64,000 bases of DNA. Source: Octopus sinensis (lineage: Eukaryota). The stretch lies in NCBI RefSeq assembly GCF_006345805.1, contig NC_043003.1, forward strand, positions 16,182,001 to 16,246,000, written 5' to 3'. The notes under the pieces were generated by a model that did no database searches, was not told where the DNA came from, and was given only the letters and a program-made list of their open reading frames with translations. A program made the translations under genes and the position numbers. This document shows positions 2,001-64,000 of the stretch, one piece after another (the first letter of the stretch is position 1; the number at the start of each line of letters is the position of its first letter).

Positions 2001-2605
2001 TTAGTTAGTTAGTTAATTTGGCTCAAAAGCAAATAGCAAGGCCATGTAGGGGGACATGGAGTTAAGTACAGGGTGGTGTTCATGTAAAGAGTTCAGGCCA
2101 CTTGAGGTCAAGGGAGGCTTTGAACAAAGCGGTCGTCGGCATCTTCACCATCTCGTCTGGCAGCTTGTTCCACGGATCCGCAACCCGGACGGAGAAAGCT
2201 CCTCTCCTTCGATTGAGATGAAATCGTCGCAGGTAGAGCTTTTCGGAATGACCCCGCAGCCGACGCTCTGGAGCAGGAGTGAAGAACAGCTCTTTCGAGG
2301 TTACACTTTCCGCTTATGATGTGTGGCGAGAATGAAATCACCACACGGCGGCGGCGTTTTTCAAGAGAATAAAGGTCGAGCGTCCTCAGCCTTTCTTCGT
2401 AGGACAAATTTTTGAGACCATGAACCATGCGGGTAGCCAACTTCTGGACTCTTTCGAGATGCTGTATGTCATTGAGGGGATAAGGAGAAGAGGCTTGAAT
2501 CCCATACTCCAATATGGGTCTCACCAGCGTGACATAGAGTGGTAGGAATATGGCTGCTGTGAGCATTCCGAATGACCGTCGAATCAAGAACAGAATTCTG
2601 CGTGA
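2001..2605 (-). mobile_element. CR1/L2-group LINE, 5'-truncated 3' end with (TAAC)n tail
   Basis: ORF 2108-2587 contains LYVTLVRPILEY...LERVQKLATR...SYEERLRTLDLYSLEKRR, the typical CR1/L2 RT C-terminal region. A near-identical 3' end recurs at 50051-50218. Confidence 0.9.
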
Positions 2606-2944: not shown

Positions 2945-3354
2945 TTGGGTTGGCAACTAAGTTCCCACGGTTTTTTTTTTATTATTTTGGAACTTATTGC
3001 GTTTTTTTAATTTTGGAATTTATTTGTTTTAGAGAATTCTATTTTTGAAGCATTTTGGAATCTTTTTTTTTTCTAGTTATTTTAGTTAATTTTTGTTTAT
3101 TTTCAGATTATTAAAATGGAATGTCAAGTTAAGAAAAACGAGTATTTTCGACACCTCCTTTATTTTGCTTTTAATCAAGGTTACAAGGCCGCGAAAGCTG
3201 CTCGCAATATTTGCGCTGTGTATGGAGAGGTTGCCATAGCTGAAAAAACCGCTCTTGATTGGTATGCCAAGTTCAAAAATGGAGATTTTGATCTCAAAGA
3301 CGCACCCCGTTCTGGCCGTCCCGTTGAGTTCGATGAAGAGCGATTAAACCAACT
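2945..3354 (+). mobile_element. Mariner transposon 5' half (TIR plus transposase N-terminal HTH), truncated by a SINE
   Basis: TA|TTGGGTTGGCAACTAAG terminus. ORF from 3116 MECQVKKNEYFRHLL...ICAVYG...WYAKFKNGDFDLKDAPRSGRP. Confidence 0.9.
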
Positions 3355-3455
3355 TTGCGTGGCACCTTGGGCAGGTGTCTTCTACTATAGCCTCGGCCCG
3401 ACCAAGACTTGTGAATGGATTTGGTAGACGGAGATTGAAAGAAGCCCGTCGTATA

Positions 3456-6485: not shown

Positions 6486-7065
6486 AAAGTGGTGAAGGCC
6501 GGTTTATGAGATTACCCTGTGTTTCCCGTCCATAAAGGGTTTAGATTATGACATATCGTCAGATCCCTAACCCTGTTGACCCAAGACCTCTTCATATTTT
6601 GAAGAGGTCTTAGGCTAACAGGTTTTGGGGTCTGACGATACCGCCATAAAGCTAAACCCTTTATGGACAGGAAACCCAGCGTAATGCAATAAACCAGCTT
6701 TCCTCACTTATAATATATACTGTTCTACATCTTAGAGTGAGTTTCTTCTCTGGATTTATGTTTTCTACAAACGATCCTTTTTGTTCTCTGGCCAGAGTTT
6801 TTCACAGAGATCATGTGTTTTTTGTTAAATAGCTGACCAGTAAATTGCGCTTCTGTATATTTACGGAAACCACGGATCTCTCATAAATATGGAACGATTT
6901 GACCTTGCTGGTCCACCAAAAACATCCCCACGCCATCCAACGAACTGTACACCCGCATGCTGCTGGAAAGAATATTAAAAAGCCATATTTTGGAGAGGTC
7001 TTAGGCCAACAGGTTTTGGGGTCTGACGATACGCCATAAAGCTAAACCCTTTAAGGACGGGAAAG
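6486..7065. mobile_element. Penelope/retrozyme-like element: inverted repeat plus 391-bp direct repeat, three hammerhead-like motifs
   Basis: Imperfect about 105-bp fold-back centred near 6597. CTGACGA..GAAA at 6632 (+), 7023 (+) and 6508-6567 (-). The minus copy has helix I gggat/atctc and a GUA site. Confidence 0.7.
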
Positions 7066-8063
7066 ATTCGTAGAAACAAAGGAAATTCTGATTTTATGCG
7101 CACCAGAATATTAGGAAAACGAAAATTGACCAAAATATCAAGAATTCAAAATCTGTAGATCTACATGTAAATAAATACTTTACATTAAAAGATTCTACGT
7201 CCAGAGATTAAGAAATACTATATAATTTAAAATCAAAATTAGAATTACGGTTGGAGAGCAACTTGTTTCGGTTGACCTTACATTACAAACATACCTTCCA
7301 ATAACAAAACCATTCAAATACATACAAAGATTTATAACGTGTTTTTTACATTAATTTATGTTATTATATTAAGTAACGAGTATTAAAATTTTGAACTTAA
7401 ACAAGAGACCGATAAATCTATACGTCCTCTCTCCACAAATGCACACAAAGATACACAGACATACGCAAGTTCATATATAATTCATATATAATTTGGTTAT
7501 CGAATAAAGCGTTTGATTTGGTGATAAATCGATAGGGCCCATTGATTTGTTTTTGCCAAAATCTCACCTTAATTATAGCTTCAACAACTAAACATTCGTT
7601 GTCGCACCAGCCATGTCTTATATAGTGTGACGTTGTTATTATAAACGACACGTTACAGAAATCGAAGCTTACAATCAGTTAGACGTTATAATTGTCTCTC
7701 TGGATACTACATATAAAAATGACCGCATTGGTTGGTGTGTGTTTTTAATAGCAATATAAGAAGAGTCAGCTAGTTTGCAACTGCGAGTGTTGGTCCCATT
7801 ATACCGATAGCTAAAATGGGAACGCAATAATAACAGAAGAATGTAACTAAAAACAACTACAACAACAGGAAGTAGAACAAAATAACAAACATAACAATAT
7901 ATATATATATGTAATGGATTGAAGAAAGACAAAGAATATAAACATGTATAACTGCATATAAACATACATACATACATATGTATATATATACATATATATG
8001 TATATATATGTATAATATATATATTTGTATATATATATGTATATATATATGTATATATATATC

Positions 8064-13764: not shown

Positions 13765-14338
13765 TTGGGTTGTTCGGAAAGTTCGTGCCGATTTTTAAAG
13801 GAAAGAAAAAGGTCAATAAATACTTGGCCTTACCCAAGCTTTACCAGGTGCTCATGAACGACGGATTTTGATAGGTTGAGGCTTTCTGCCAATTCTCGGG
13901 TTGTGCAATGAGGGTTATTCTCAATTAATGACTTAATTTGGTCATCATCTGTAGTGGATGGTCTGCTTGATCGCTCTTTATCAATAAGGCTACAATCTCC
14001 AGCTCGGAACCTTGCGAACCACTTCCGTACAGTTCTTTCGGATAAAGAAACATCACCGTAAACTGCGCATATTTCTTTTATTTGTTTGTAAGGCATTTTT
14101 CCCTTCACGGAAAATGAAAAGCAACAAGTGCCGAAAATGAACTTTCTTATCTTCATTTTAAAGGGTTACAGAATTAATACAGGTTATAGGAACATAAACC
14201 TTCTTCCACGAAAAGATAGTTTAAACTGTGCTCTAAATGGAGGTGTAGTCAAATCCTATTTTATGGACTCAACCATGTTCTAAAATAAGTCGAAAGGTAA
14301 GCTACTATAAATCAGCACGAACTTTCCGGACAACCCAA
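13765..14338 (-). mobile_element. Internally deleted mariner (both TIRs, TA TSD), retains N-terminal HTH
   Basis: TA|TTGGGTTGTTCGGAAAGTTCGTGC ... GCACGAACTTTCCGGACAACCCAA|TA. ORF 13830-14156 ICAVYGDVSLSERTVRKWFARFRAGD..RSSRP. Confidence 0.92.
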
Positions 14339-21390: not shown

Positions 21391-21599
21391 TATACATATA
21401 TATTCATATATATATATATATATACACACACACATACAGAGTGTATCAGTTTTTTTGAGGTCATTTGTACGAATTTAGAAAAGGCGCATAGATTATCAAA
21501 GAAAGGCTGTATTTGAAAACAAATTGGTACAAATAATCTTGAGAATCCTTTCATCACACTTATCTAATGAATCCATCGCTAGCATCAATGACTGCTTCA

Positions 21600-21696
21600 A
21601 TACAGAGTGGTTAAGAGCGCGGGCTACGAACCCCAAGATTCCGAGTTCGGTTCCAGGCAGTGGTCTGAATGATAATAATAATAATAATAATAATAA

Positions 21697-21769
<73 letters not shown>

Positions 21770-21985
21770 AATACTACTACTACTAATAATAATAATGATA
21801 ATGATAATAAGAATAATAAAATATAATAATATAATAATAATAATAATAGCAAAGCAACATCGAATGAGAACCCAGGTTCGAAATTTCCCCCCAACACCTG
21901 ATGAGGCTGGAGGGTTATTCAGCCGAAACGTTGTGTTAACAACAACCAGATGAAGACAAATTCCGTCAGATCTAAATAATGTAAA

Positions 21986-21990
<5 letters not shown>
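21600..21990 (+). mobile_element. tRNA-SINE head + (TAA/TAC)n + hammerhead tail
   Basis: GAGTGGTTAAGAGCG (A box) and GAGTTCGGTTCC (B box) at about 21605-21654, a microsatellite, then a hammerhead at 21893-21937. Confidence 0.6.
21893..21937 (+). ncRNA. Minimal type I hammerhead ribozyme
   Basis: aacac-CTGATGA-ggctg-gagggttatt-cagcc-GAAA-c-GTT-gtgtt. 5-bp helix I, 5-bp helix II, palindromic ACGT helix III, GUU site. Confidence 0.8.
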
Positions 21991-22027
<37 letters not shown>

Positions 22028-22229
22028 ATATTAGGGAATAAACCAAACTTACAGGGAAAATCAGATTTAGGATTGAATCCAATTTTATAGTAAATATTAT
22101 ATTATATTAATTAGAGACAAACCACTATTAGGCAAATCATACAATGAAAAACTTAAGCCAATACATAAGATTATTTAATTTATATTATTTAAACATATAA
22201 CAAAATTATCAAAAAAATATAATTAATAT

Positions 22230-36588: not shown

Positions 36589-36935
36589 CTTCTCTGCACT
36601 AACCACCATACCTCAACCGTCTTACTCTGAACATCATCCCTTTAATATTATTCCCTTTTGCACGTCTTTCCTGGAGATGTTGACCCGAAATAGTGTGAAT
36701 AAAACATTAACATCAATCTCGCCATATTCATATTAAGAAATTCCATGTAGACGTTCTCTTAATTTAAATTTTTGTTTTATTTTCTTACGAAAATTCTTAT
36801 GATGGATCTCCTTATCATCGAGGAACTTTCTTATTAAAAGCACATCCTTAGCCCATCTTCAAGATTAGCCCTTGTCTTTTAAGTCAGAAAATATTTCAAC
36901 CCCCAACAACAAAAGGTTCAAATGAGGCGTCATAC

Positions 36936-37538
36936 CTATTTCTTTATTACCCAGAAGGGGCTAAACATAGAGGGGGAAAGCAAGGTCAGACAAAGGGATT
37001 AAGTCGATTATATCGACCCCAGTGCGTAACTGGTACTTAATTTATCGACCCCGAAAGGATGAAAGGCAAAGTCGACCTCGGCGGAATTTGAACTCAGAAC
37101 GTAGTGGCAGACGAAATACCTATTTCTTTACTACCCACAAGGGGCTGAACACAGAGAGGGCAAACAAGGACAGTCAAACAGATTAAGTCGATTATATCGA
37201 CCCCAGTGTGTAACTGGTACTTATTTAATTGACCCCGAAAGGATGAAAGGCAAAGTCGACCTCGGCAGAATTTGAACTCAGAACGTAGTGGCAGACGAAA
37301 TACCTATTTCTTTACTACCCACAAGGGGCTGAACACAGAGAGGGCAAACAAGGACAGACAAACAGATTAAGTCGATTATATCGACCCCAGTGCGTAACTG
37401 GTACTTATTTAATCGACCCCGAAAGGATGAAAGGCAAAGTTGACCGTGGCGGAATTTGAACTCAGAACGTAACGGCAGACAAAATACCGCTAAGCATTTC
37501 GCCCGACGTGCTAACGTTTCTGCCAGCTCGCCGCCTCG
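36936..37538 (-). mobile_element. SINE family B trimer (184-bp period) with 13-bp TSD
   Basis: GAAATACCTATTTC junctions at about 37119 and 37303. TSD TGAGGCGTCATAC at 36923-36935 and 37539-37551. Confidence 0.92.
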
Positions 37539-42341: not shown

Positions 42342-43068
42342 ATGGCTACTCCTCATGAAAAGGCACAATGTGTATCCTGGTTTATTGAGACAAAATCGGA
42401 TGTTCAGACAATGTGAGAATCTGGGGATCAGAACATCCCCATGTGTCTGGGGAGCTTCAACGGGATAGTCCAAAAGTGAATGTGTGGTGTGGAATCATGT
42501 GCAATCGAATAATTGGTCCATTTTTTTTCAACGAGGCAACAATTACTGCAGACGTTTACCTCGACCTTCTGACCGAATATGTGGTACCACAACTGATTGA
42601 TTTACGACCAACCATCATTTTCCAGCAAGATGGTGCACCACCACATTGGGGACGGCATGTTCGTCAGTTCCTCAATCAAACATTTCCAGACCGATGGATT
42701 GGAAGGGATGGGTCAATTCCATGGCCAACGCGTTCGCCAGATATCTCTCCCTTGGACATCTTTTTATGGGGTTATGTAAAAGATACCGTGTATCAAACAA
42801 AGATACGAGACAATGCTGACTTGAAGCAAAGGATTCGTAATGCCATTGCTACCGTTGATGAGGCTATCCTACAGCGAACATGGCAAGAAATCGAGTACCG
42901 TCTTGATGTGCTTCGCGCAACTAATGGTCCCCATATTGAGGTCTATTAAATAACAGTTAGAAAAAACTTTAATAAACAATTATTACAATAAAACAAATCT
43001 GGTTAAGCTATCTCGTCAACTGCCTTTGTAATAAAATTTTAAAATTGTAGAGAGACTTTATGGACACC

Positions 43069-43071: not shown

Positions 43072-43101
<30 letters not shown>

Positions 43102-43111
<10 letters not shown>

Positions 43112-43445
43112 TATTAGAGACAAAACCACTATTTTGCAAAACAAACAAGGAAAGACTTAATCAATACATAAAATTTTAATAAATAGTCAAAAAAACCGCC
43201 ACTAAATTTGAAACTGACTTATTGGAAGTCCACCTGAAGATTGTCGATCAAGACAAGAAACAATTGTAGTGGCGGTTTTTTTGACTATTTATTAAAATTT
43301 TATGTATTGATTAAGTCTTTCCTTGTTTGTTTTGCAAAATAGTGGTTTTGTCTCTAATAATATTTTATAATATTTTACTATAAAATTGGATTTAATCCTA
43401 AATCTGATTTTTTTCCCCTGTAAATTTGGATTTATTCCCTAATAT
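43102..43445 (+). mobile_element. Family-H fold-back element with perfect about 103-bp inverted arms enclosing a hammerhead
   Basis: Arms 43102-43204 / 43267-43369, inserted in (TA)n. Confidence 0.88.
43230..43272 (+). ncRNA. Minimal type I hammerhead ribozyme
   Basis: ccac-CTGAAGA-ttgtc-gatcaa-gacaa-GAAA-caatt-GTA-gtgg. Helices I and II are fully paired and helix III is the palindrome ACAATTGT. Cleavage after 43268. Confidence 0.85.
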
Positions 43446-43576
43446 TTATTATTTTATATATATATATATATACTTTTTTTATTTAATGTATTTAATATTC
43501 TTTTGTATATCGATGTGCCTAATTTGCATATCCTTACATTCACATCTACACACACACACACACACACACACATATA

Positions 43577-51144: not shown

Positions 51145-51709
51145 TTGGGTTGTCCGGAAAGTTCATGCCGATTTATAGTAGCTTACATTTCGACTTATTT
51201 TAGAACATGGTTGAGTTCATAAAATAGGATTTGACTACACCTCCATTTAGAGCACAGTCTAAGCTATCTTTTCGTGGAAGAAGGTTCATGTTCCTATAAC
51301 CTGTGTTAATTCTGTAAGCCTTTAAAATGGAAGATATGAAAGCTCATTTTCGGCATTTGATGCTTTGGGAACTAGACAAAAATTGCTGCAGCTCGGTTGG
51401 GATGTGTTACCCCACCCTCCATATTCACCAGATATTGCTCCTTCGGATTTCCACTTATTCAGGTCTCTGCAGAATAGTCTTAATGGTAAAAATTTCAATT
51501 CCTTGGATGACGTAAAAAGATACCTTGATGAATTCTTTGCCATGAATCCACCTCAATTCTGGGAAGAAGGTATTTTCAAGTTAAAGGTAAGATGGAGACG
51601 CATTGTGCAACAAAATGGTTCATATTTGATTGATTAAAAATGTAATGGCAAGTATTTATTGACCTTTTTCTTTCCTTTAAAAATGGCACGAACTTTACGG
51701 ACAACCCAA
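51145..51709 (+). mobile_element. Internally deleted mariner (same family as 13765), retains catalytic C-terminus
   Basis: Both TIRs. MEDMKAHFRHLMLW is fused to TRQKLLQLGWDVLPHPPYSPDIAPSDFHLFRSLQN (mariner YSPDLAP motif). Confidence 0.93.
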
Positions 51710-53921: not shown

Positions 53922-54341
53922 GCCAAGGCGGCGAGCTGGGAGAAACGTTAGCGCGCCGAGCGAGAATGCTTAGTGGTATTTTGTCTGCCGCTGCGTTCTG
54001 AGTTCAAATTCCGCCGAGGTCGACTTTGCCTTTCATTCTTTCGGGGTCGATAAATTAAGTACCAGTTACGCACTGGGGTCGATGTAATCGACTCAATCCG
54101 TTTGTCTGTCCTTGTTTGTCCGCTCTGTGTTTAGCCCCTTGTGGGTAATAAAGAAATAGGTATTTCGTCCGCCGCTGCGTTCTGAGTTCAAATTCCGCCG
54201 AGGTCGACTTTGCCTTTCATCCTTTCGGGGTCGATAAATAAGTACCAGTTACGCACTGGGGTCGATGTAATCGACTCAATCCGTTTGTCTGTCCTTGTTT
54301 GTCCTCTCTGTGTTTAGCCCCTTGTGGGTAGTAAAGAAATA
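53922..54341 (+). mobile_element. SINE-B dimer with 12-bp TSD
   Basis: TSD GGTATGTTGGTG at 53910-53921 and 54342-54353, junction near 54159. Confidence 0.9.
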
Positions 54342-54982
54342 GGTATGTTGGTGACTGTGGTTGTGATGATGATGAGAGCAATGGTAATTGCGTTTGTGAT
54401 GGCGGCGATTGTAACCATGGAATGTAAAAGAAGGACATTGTAGGCTTGCATCAGGTTTGTAGTGTTAATGGGTGATGGTCACTTTTTGTTGCAGCTACTG
54501 CAACTTATTGTTGTTGTTGTTGTTAGAGGAGAGCTGGAGGAGGGAATGGTCTATTGGTACTGGCAACGATGTGCAGCCACTACGTTCTGTGATAATGTTG
54601 TTGTTGTTGTTGTTGTTCTTGTTCTTCTTTTTCTTCTTCTTCTTCATGTTGGCATTCGCAGTATTTGAAACACTGTACCAAATAATAGAAAGATTATATC
54701 CACGCGCAAACACACACACACACTCACACTCACATACACACTCACACTCATATACACACCACAGACACACACATACACACACAAACACACAGAGAAAGAG
54801 AAGAACTTACACACTCTAAGATAAATTCAATTCACATACATACATATATACATACATATCTGTGTGCATATATGTATATATATGCATATATGCCTAAATG
54901 TACATATATGTATATATACTTACATGTACATATATATATCTATATATATATCTATATATATATATAAAAGTGTATAAAATAC

Positions 54983-62778: not shown

Positions 62779-62825
<47 letters not shown>

Positions 62826-62828
<3 letters not shown>

Positions 62829-63143
62829 GGGAATATAATTCTAAAACCCACAGGGAAAAATTCAATTTAACAATTTTAAATCAAATTTCACAATATATAT
62901 ATATATGTATATAATTTAGAGAAAAACCTCTATTAAGCAATTCAATAAAGAGAGATGTTATTTACAACATATAGAAAACATATACTATAAAAACCTTAAT
63001 CTAAAAATCAATAAAGTACAATATTTACTATTTATTGTACTTTAATGATTTAAAATAAGATTTTTTTGATAGTATATGTTTTCTATATGGTGTGAATAAC
63101 ATCTTTCTTTATTGAATTATTTAATAGAGGTTTTTCTCTAAAT
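62826..63143. mobile_element. Family-H fold-back, older copy lacking the hammerhead
   Basis: Imperfect 110-bp arms 62914-63023 / 63033-63143. AGGGAATA..ACAGGGAAAA..TTAGAGA.AAACC.CTATT shared with 22030-22130. Confidence 0.7.
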
Positions 63144-63148
63144 CATAT

Positions 63149-63194
<46 letters not shown>

Positions 63195-63203
63195 GTATGT
63201 ATA

Positions 63204-64000
63204 CAGGGTGCGTAAAGTATTTGAGGACATAACTTTTTGGGGTCATTACAGCATTTTTTGCCCACTCTGTATTATCTTTGTTTCAAAAACTAGTAATGAC
63301 AGACCCTCAGCTTACTCAAGAAATGAAGAGGCATGCTGTTATTGTGGTTATAAAGGCTGAGCATAGCGATTTAGAAATATCTCGATTGTTAAAAGTTGCC
63401 AGATCTTTCGTCTACGAAGTCTGTAAGGAGCTAGAGACTGAAAATGCATAAAAAGCGTTCTAAACACTCTGAAATCATCAGAACACCTGTATTTATTCAG
63501 CAAGTTCAACAGACCATTTGTAACAATCCCAGATAGTCAATGAGGTCAATTGCAAAAGATCTCCATGTGTCAAAAGGAAGAGCCAGAAATATTGTCCATG
63601 AAGACATCAGATATAAGTCTTATATAATGAGGAAAGGTCAATTTGTCAGAAAAAGGAAAAAAAAAAATCACTACATCAGTTCTAAAAGGCTCTTAAACAA
63701 ACTGAAAAATCCAGCAGAAGAAGATTTGATTTGGTTTTTCTCAAACGAGAAACACTTCGACCAAGATCAAAAAGTTAACAGAAGAAATGACAGATGGTTA
63801 TGTGCAGACCCTTCTGAAGTTCCAAGTGTTATGCATACAAAATTTCTTGAAACCGTCATGGTTTTAAGGCTTGTCGGCAATGAAGGATATGTAATACTTC
63901 CTTACTTCTTTCCACAAGGCCTTAGAGTTAACTTTGCCGCCTACATTGAGGTCCTGGAAGTAAGTCTTAAGCCCTGAATAGACAGTGTATGCAATGGAAG
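63204..64000 (+). mobile_element. Tc1/mariner (maT/DD37D-like) transposon, degraded, runs off window
   Basis: TA|CAGGGTG terminus. MTDPQLTQEMKRHAVIV.. from 63296. ORF 63540 MRSIAKDLHVS..WFFSNEKHF..NRRNDRWL..VMV. The D2-D3 spacing is outside the window. Confidence 0.8.

What the first reader, a model, noticed from the sequence alone, without database searches (positions are those of the whole stretch)
21600..21990. Pol III SINE head linked to a hammerhead tail
Seen: tRNA-like A/B boxes, about 180 bp of (TAA/TAC)n, and a well-formed hammerhead on the same strand, with no T4 terminator between them. Established: schistosome SM-alpha repeats combine a tRNA-like promoter with a hammerhead. Inference: a SINE parasitising Penelope machinery, with its 3' end defined by self-cleavage.
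Basis: partly seen in the sequence, partly recalled or inferred. Interest (0 to 1): 0.75.

Follow-up and report, generated by a model that had tools for sequence, protein, structure and literature searches.

The report
tRNA-headed repeat with Penelope-type ribozyme tail
This is a worn copy of a short non-coding jumping element, most likely from an octopus, that joins a tRNA-derived start to the self-cutting RNA end typical of Penelope retrotransposons; a second copy shows the join is real, but the ribozyme cut does not mark the element's end.

Summary
The parts are real: a tRNA-like head (21590-21665) with worn A and B boxes, a 181-bp AAT/TAC array, a type I hammerhead (21893-21937), and no T4 run until 22083. 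The hammerhead is not the canonical schistosome kind. It is the minimal Penelope (PLE) form, whose helix III is only the palindrome ACGU and is expected to work as a dimer. Head and tail are linked in one other copy. A search with the antisense head peptide alone found an Octopus bimaculoides NUP42 gene model whose last 49 residues also read through the tail (13 of 15 identical), with a spacer 49 codons shorter. Copy number and the 5' boundary could not be measured, because no genome is held. Self-cleavage does not define the 3' end: the DNA keeps the strand beyond the cut and about 50 more bases, as PLE insertions do. Best reading (0.5): a tRNA-headed, non-autonomous element with a PLE-derived 3' end. 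Main rival (0.33): the end of a PLE whose terminal repeat carries a tRNA piece. Verdict: a new variant of a known kind.

The parts
21590..21665 (+). tRNA-derived head with worn A box (about 21601-21613) and B box (21645-21654) and an acceptor-like stem (21591-21596 with 21656-21661)
   Evidence: Sequence; fails strict box pattern; weak similarity to other SINE-like heads; 14 of 18 antisense residues shared with P0002
21668..21848 (+). Compound AAT/TAC microsatellite spacer, expanded in this copy
   Evidence: 65 codons between tail and head anchors here against 16 in P0002
21849..21892 (+). Tail, part before the ribozyme
   Evidence: Antisense 21907-21863 matches P0002 residues 146-160 at 13 of 15; 0 of 896 other window stretches reach the score
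21893..21937 (+). Minimal type I hammerhead of Penelope type; helix III reduced to the palindrome ACGU; predicted cut after 21932
   Evidence: compared with PMC4209133
21938..21987 (+). About 50 bases beyond the ribozyme, AC-rich at first; probable 3' extension of the element (boundary inferred, not measured)
   Evidence: Sequence; bounded by (TA)n at 21988, after which an unrelated repeat family begins
21988..22024 (.). (TA)n run at the 3' end; possible insertion target
   Evidence: (TA)n is a preferred target of some PLE clades (PMC8557442 passages)
21441..21589 (.). Unassigned 150 bases upstream of the head: flank if the element is a SINE, part of the element if it is a PLE end
   Evidence: No second copy in the window; no protein relative; read laying uninformative

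Best explanation
A decayed copy of a short non-autonomous retroelement: a tRNA-derived Pol III head, an AAT spacer and a 3' end taken from a Penelope-like element (PLE). Shown: the three parts; their linkage in a second copy with a different spacer length; the PLE-type form of the ribozyme; and that this copy came from an RNA not cut at 21932. Inferred: source copies are read by Pol III from the head through a body free of T4 runs; the protein of a PLE with the same tail binds the ribozyme-bearing end, nicks AT-rich DNA and starts reverse transcription inside the RNA about 55 bases past the cut site. The ribozyme would then be kept as part of the recognition end and be largely silent as a monomer. 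The head frees the element from the tandem arrangement that PLEs need for transcription. This copy is probably dead (worn boxes, expanded spacer).
For: Linkage: the query, 59 held only head and spacer, yet its single hit P0002 also carries the tail piece, in the right order and strand. P0002 is an O. bimaculoides NUP42 model, and its first 145 residues have no real match in the window (best E 0.12, low complexity). PLE type: palindromic minimal helix III, 7-bp helix II and 5-bp helix I agree with PMC4209133. L006 has the same GAAACGUU-GUGU end about 430 bases after a GIY-YIG frame (Pfam E 6.2e-5). The head is a complete tRNA-length unit, and the + strand has no T4 from 21590 to 22082. Octopus vulgaris has 190 PLE families covering 6.83% of its genome, 31 of them recently active.
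Against: Only one other copy was found, and only as a peptide; three further protein searches found no additional copy. Orthology of that copy with this locus across an intron over 42 kb is not excluded. The 5' boundary is unmeasured, and the 150 bases upstream run to a TA/CA run, as a longer PLE fragment would. No target-site duplication of 8 bases or more. No partner PLE was found (the L006 protein has no match in the window). This copy lacks the extra base after CUGAUGA that PMC4209133 calls conserved in PLE ribozymes and that all 6 of 6 metagenome loci have. No expression data.
Confidence: 0.5

Rival explanations
1. The stretch 21441-21987 is the 3' end or solo terminal repeat (pLTR) of a PLE family whose pLTR carries a tRNA-derived piece. 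That piece is either a simple SINE (head plus AAT tail) that once inserted there and now rides along, or a captured Pol III promoter.
For: The stretch is bounded on both sides by TA-type runs (21391-21438 and 21988-22024). Most PLE ribozymes occur singly in truncated copies (PMC4209133). The distance from 21441 to the ribozyme is of the order of the 430 bases between frame and ribozyme in L006. P0002 stops within the head, so it says nothing about upstream sequence.
Against: The upstream 150 bases have no protein relative and no second copy in the window. No tRNA piece was detected before the ribozyme in L003-L008 (the single ARAGORN call, in L004, lies about 600 bases 3' of it).
Confidence: 0.33
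2. A monomer of an SM-alpha-like or non-LTR retrozyme family: tandem source arrays are read by Pol III, cut by dimeric ribozymes into unit-length or circular RNA, and reinserted.
For: SM-alpha joins a Pol III promoter and a type I hammerhead. Animal retrozymes derive from pLTRs and often occur as monomers (10.64898/2026.07.22.740005). The dimeric active fold is feasible (-27.1 kcal/mol against a dimer minimum of -30.0).
Against: No tandem copy in the window. The copy neither begins nor ends at the cut site, as a unit cut from an array would. The ribozyme is the minimal form, reported to cleave poorly.
Confidence: 0.1
3. Chance adjacency: a small SINE and a PLE fragment inserted separately into the same AAT run, and P0002 is the same locus in another octopus.
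For: Repeats in this window cluster at microsatellites; there are 20 perfect AAT or ATT runs of 6 or more units. Only one other copy was seen.
Against: No NUP42 exon in 64 kb. The two copies differ in spacer length, in the residues next to the spacer and at 6 of 33 aligned residues. Neither part occurs alone elsewhere in the window.
Confidence: 0.07

Closest known systems
Terminal repeats (pLTRs) of Penelope-like elements with minimal hammerheads (PMC4209133, parts 1-2 of 4 read; PMC11167929, parts 1-2 of 4 read; PMC8557442, passages)
   Same: Type I ribozyme with palindromic, loopless helix III, long helix II and short helix I; sequence continues past the cut; ends at (TA)n.
   Different: A tRNA-derived head lies upstream on the same strand; no reading frame; the extra base after the core is missing in this copy.
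SM-alpha / Sj-alpha SINE-like repeats of schistosomes (seen only through passages of PMC6765202 and PMC8490949; Ferbeyre 1998 not read)
   Same: Pol III-type promoter followed by a type I hammerhead in a short non-coding repeat.
   Different: SM-alpha is often tandem, has an active ribozyme, and its cleaved unit carries the promoter at the 3' end. Here there is a lone copy with a minimal PLE-type ribozyme and an internal microsatellite.
Non-LTR retrozymes, proposed non-autonomous PLE derivatives (10.64898/2026.07.22.740005, parts 1-3 of 5 read, supplements not seen; PMC7229834, passages)
   Same: Short, non-coding, type I hammerhead, presumed to depend on PLE proteins.
   Different: They are defined by tandem units, each with a ribozyme. 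No tRNA head is described in the parts read; the word tRNA has 0 occurrences in the preprint.
tRNA-derived SINEs with head, body and partner-derived 3' tail, including the three octopus families of Ohshima and Okada 1994 (title seen in a reference list; paper not read)
   Same: tRNA-derived head, no T4 run, simple-repeat segment, 3' part borrowed from an autonomous retroelement.
   Different: The borrowed 3' part is PLE-type rather than LINE-type. Whether this family is one of the 1994 families could not be checked.

Membership tests
tRNA-derived SINE | tRNA-derived 5' part with A and B boxes | tested here: inconclusive
   tRNA geometry present, but boxes worn; strict pattern, ARAGORN and Rfam negative
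tRNA-derived SINE | Element begins at the head | tested here: inconclusive
   0 contigs laid in 4 of the 24 listed runs; P0002 ends within the head
tRNA-derived SINE | No Pol III terminator inside | tested here: met
   First T4 at 22083
tRNA-derived SINE | Many dispersed copies with head and tail linked | tested here: inconclusive
   1 other linked copy; none in the window; no genome held
tRNA-derived SINE | 3' end shared with an autonomous partner | not testable with these tools
   No octopus genome or repeat library held; only the ribozyme type is shared with L006
tRNA-derived SINE | Target-site duplication | tested here: not met
   Longest flanking direct repeat 7 bases, AT-rich; duplications are often not discernible for PLEs inserted in microsatellites
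PLE terminal repeat | Type I hammerhead with palindromic minimal helix III | tested here: met
   PMC4209133
PLE terminal repeat | Extra base between positions 9 and 10.1 | tested here: not met
   Absent in this copy, present in 6 of 6 metagenome loci; state in other copies unknown
PLE terminal repeat | Sequence extends beyond the cut site | tested here: met
   55 non-simple bases after 21932
PLE terminal repeat | Adjacent reverse transcriptase / GIY-YIG frame | tested here: not met
   No such frame near the element among 88 ORFs of 100 aa or more; no match of the L006 protein
Non-LTR retrozyme / SM-alpha | Tandem units, each with a hammerhead | tested here: not met
   Single copy in 64 kb; arrays elsewhere in the genome not testable
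Non-LTR retrozyme / SM-alpha | Self-cleavage and unit-length or circular RNA | not testable with these tools
   Only folding energies; no RNA run holds the stretch beyond a small share

The most novel reading that the evidence does not exclude
An abundant octopus SINE family whose partner is a Penelope-like element: a tRNA promoter fused to a PLE 3' end, in which the hammerhead is kept as part of the end that the PLE protein recognises rather than as a cutter. It would extend SINE partnerships from LINEs to the telomerase-related class and define a PLE's minimal cis-acting signal.
Probability: 0.4. Interest if true: 0.72.

Novelty: new variant of a known kind. Interest (0 to 1): 0.5.

Why it matters
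SINEs are normally described as parasites of LINEs through a shared 3' tail. Non-autonomous PLE derivatives are known, and so is one Pol III plus hammerhead repeat (SM-alpha). A dispersed tRNA-headed element with a PLE-type end did not appear in the listings or passages from ten literature searches; Repbase, Dfam and SINEBase were not searchable, so it may already be catalogued there. If the family is large, its roughly 140-base tail shows which part of a PLE RNA suffices for mobilisation in trans. Its copies would also test whether the PLE hammerhead is kept for cleavage or for structure, a question that PMC8557442 and PMC11167929 leave open. The rival, a PLE with a tRNA piece in its terminal repeat, would also be unusual. 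An antisense copy appears as the last exon of a NUP42 gene model, though that may be an annotation artefact.

Tried and rejected
No whole genome is held. Rfam: nothing at gathering score in the window, and only microRNA and snoRNA noise at E up to 10 on 21400-22200. ARAGORN at a lowered threshold calls the head Arg(ACG) but makes 181 calls in the window, so this was rejected as evidence; the tRNA isotype is left open. Pattern scans: viral contigs gave 2 unrelated 18-21 base matches and 0 in two more scans; genome contigs gave 0 in two scans; metagenome contigs gave 0 with a family-specific pattern and 6 loci with a general one, none homologous beyond the ribozyme. Plasmids: no match. Sequencing runs: 24 listed, none above 0.25 of the words, probably microsatellite words; laying 21441-21700 on 4 of them gave 0 contigs, which is no evidence of absence. 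Protein searches with forward-frame translations: none; with the P0002 end: only P0002 among 4 candidates. Protein atlas: only NUP42 clusters at scores of 0.8 or less. A relaxed hammerhead descriptor gave 3 hits in the window (21898+, 43234+, 27550-) against 0 in 60 resamples and caught only 2 of the 6 metagenome loci, so it is a rough control; the two extra hits lie in other repeats and were not pursued. Whole-strand folding z-scores are weak (-0.5 to -1.2). Short motifs of the element were not found in paper texts or in two papers' supplements. Lunse et al. 2017 is not held. Earlier findings of the scan held no look-alike stretch.

Full report
Setting. The window is microsatellite-rich animal DNA full of short repeats. 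No genome is held for it. The only named relative of the element comes from Octopus bimaculoides, so the window is probably from an octopus; this is an inference.

Observation. On the + strand lie a 76-base tRNA-like unit (21590-21665), a compound AAT/TAC array (21668-21848), about 45 bases, a hammerhead (21893-21937), about 50 more bases and a (TA)n run (21988-22024). The core pattern occurs once in 64 kb against 0.01 expected. There is no T4 from the head to 22082. The head is worn: it fails a strict A+B box pattern that matched 3 other places, ARAGORN and Rfam do not report it, and its B box has G where the recalled consensus has an invariant A. Its tRNA origin rests on length, an acceptor-like stem of 6 pairs (pairing probability only about 0.12) and weak hits to other SINE-like heads of the window (8 hits, E 0.028-0.77).

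The ribozyme. Helix I has 5 pairs, helix II 7, and helix III is only the palindrome ACGU; the cut would follow U at 21932. This is the minimal form that PMC4209133 (parts 1-2 of 4 read) describes in PLE terminal repeats: it needs a second copy to complete helix III and cleaves poorly in vitro. The isolated 45 bases fold to helix I + II (-13.9 kcal/mol). The dimeric active form is 2.9 kcal/mol above the dimer minimum. In the 141-base context a hairpin at 21930-21943 (0.68) displaces helix I (0.0). A metagenome scan with the core and right half gave 6 loci; their likeness there is by construction. One of them, L006, is a clear PLE end: a frame with a GIY-YIG match (Pfam E 6.2e-5), about 430 bases, the ribozyme, then an ATG. 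Only that frame of the six loci was scanned against Pfam; the others were read by eye from six-frame listings. All 6 have at least one extra base after CUGAUGA, which this copy lacks.

Are head and tail one element? Neither occurs elsewhere in the window, and read laying was uninformative. I therefore looked for gene models that read through other copies. A search of 1.84 billion proteins with the 30-residue antisense translation of head and spacer gave 1 hit, P0002 (E 4.4e-4, 88% identity), a NUP42 model of O. bimaculoides. Its last 49 residues are a tail piece, 9 isoleucines and a head piece, in the order that antisense reading predicts. The tail piece was not in the query. It matches 21907-21863 at 13 of 15 residues, with a score of 64 against a maximum of 38 in 896 other stretches of the window. 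The head piece matches at 14 of 18, and both readings stop at the same place. The anchors are 16 codons apart there and 65 here. The first 145 residues of NUP42 have no real match in the window, so this is probably a separate insertion, though an intron over 42 kb cannot be excluded. Three other protein searches found no further copy. Linkage at variable spacing is thus shown for 2 copies; family size is unknown.

The 3' end. The sequence argues against this: a copy made from RNA cut at 21932 would lack the 3' strand of helix I, yet that strand and about 50 more bases are present. PMC11167929 (parts 1-2 of 4) reports for an Anolis PLE that reverse transcription starts inside the RNA, in an AC-rich stem-loop downstream of the ribozyme; genomic ends fall there, ribozyme mutants still insert, and no reads end at the cut. 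The window's layout fits that pattern, including an AC-rich hairpin just after the cut, but the resemblance is by analogy only. That the last 50 bases belong to the element is inferred; beyond the (TA)n a different, palindromic repeat family begins.

The 5' end. This is the open question. The 150 bases upstream of the head run to a TA/CA stretch and have no second copy or protein relative. If they are flank, the element is a SINE with a PLE tail. If they belong to it, it is the end of a PLE whose terminal repeat has taken in a tRNA piece, perhaps a simple SINE with an AAT tail. Earlier notes of this scan on LINEs with tRNA heads in other genomes (unchecked) made me keep this rival high.

Mechanism. 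Most likely (0.5): Pol III reads a source copy from the head through a T4-free body; a PLE protein binds the borrowed end, nicks AT-rich DNA and primes internally near 21987. The parts, the linkage and the uncut template are shown; transcription, partner and priming site are inferred. Autonomous partners are available in octopus: 190 PLE families, 6.83% of the O. vulgaris genome (PMC13282606, passages and supplement search).

Comparison. It works like a SINE with a partner-derived tail, and like a non-autonomous PLE. It cannot be filed as a SINE until the 5' end and copy number are known. It fails the tandem test for retrozymes and SM-alpha in this window. SM-alpha is the precedent for a Pol III promoter with a hammerhead (passages). 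A 2026 preprint derives animal retrozymes from PLE terminal repeats (parts 1-3 of 5, supplements not seen). Short non-autonomous PLEs are noted in Chlamydomonas and butterflies (passages). Passages of PMC7229834, PMC8967140, PMC6962438 and PMC10886601 held nothing on such an element. Ten searches showed no tRNA-headed PLE-dependent element in what I saw (two searches listed 30 of 72 and 30 of 67 papers). Repeat databases and subscription papers were not searchable.

Verdict. A real composite element and a new variant of a known kind. Interest 0.5; 0.72 if it proves to be an abundant PLE-partnered SINE.

Noticed in passing
window 6490-7070: Three related hammerhead-core-like motifs (CUGACGA, a helix, GAAA): + 6632 and + 7023 as direct copies 391 bases apart, and - 6562 inverted next to a (TA)n run. 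The layout recalls PLE inverted-plus-tandem insertions or a retrozyme dimer. Folding gave no strong signal.
   Followed up: partly
window 22025-22180, 43090-43472, 62782-63150: An AT-rich palindromic (fold-back) repeat family flanked by (TA)n; one arm begins right after the element's 3' (TA)n.
   Followed up: partly
P0002 residues 146-194: An O. bimaculoides NUP42 gene model ends in an antisense copy of this element: an exonised repeat or an annotation artefact.
   Followed up: partly
window 21463-21476 and 21521-21534: A 14-base inverted repeat (13 of 14) in the unassigned stretch upstream of the head.
   Followed up: no
window 28277 (+): Another CUGACGA...GAAA motif with a short possible helix II; weak.
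   Followed up: no
window 36932-37536 and 53925-54346: SINE-like copies with tandem 183-184 base 3' units.
   Followed up: no
window 2108-2605, 3086-3427, 13830-14165, 42389-42949, 51326-51637, 63537-63977: Open frames that read, by recall, like fragments of LINE and Tc1/mariner proteins; not scanned.
   Followed up: no
L006 3-1146: A clean PLE 3' end in a metagenome contig: GIY-YIG frame, terminal repeat, minimal hammerhead and a following ATG.
   Followed up: yes
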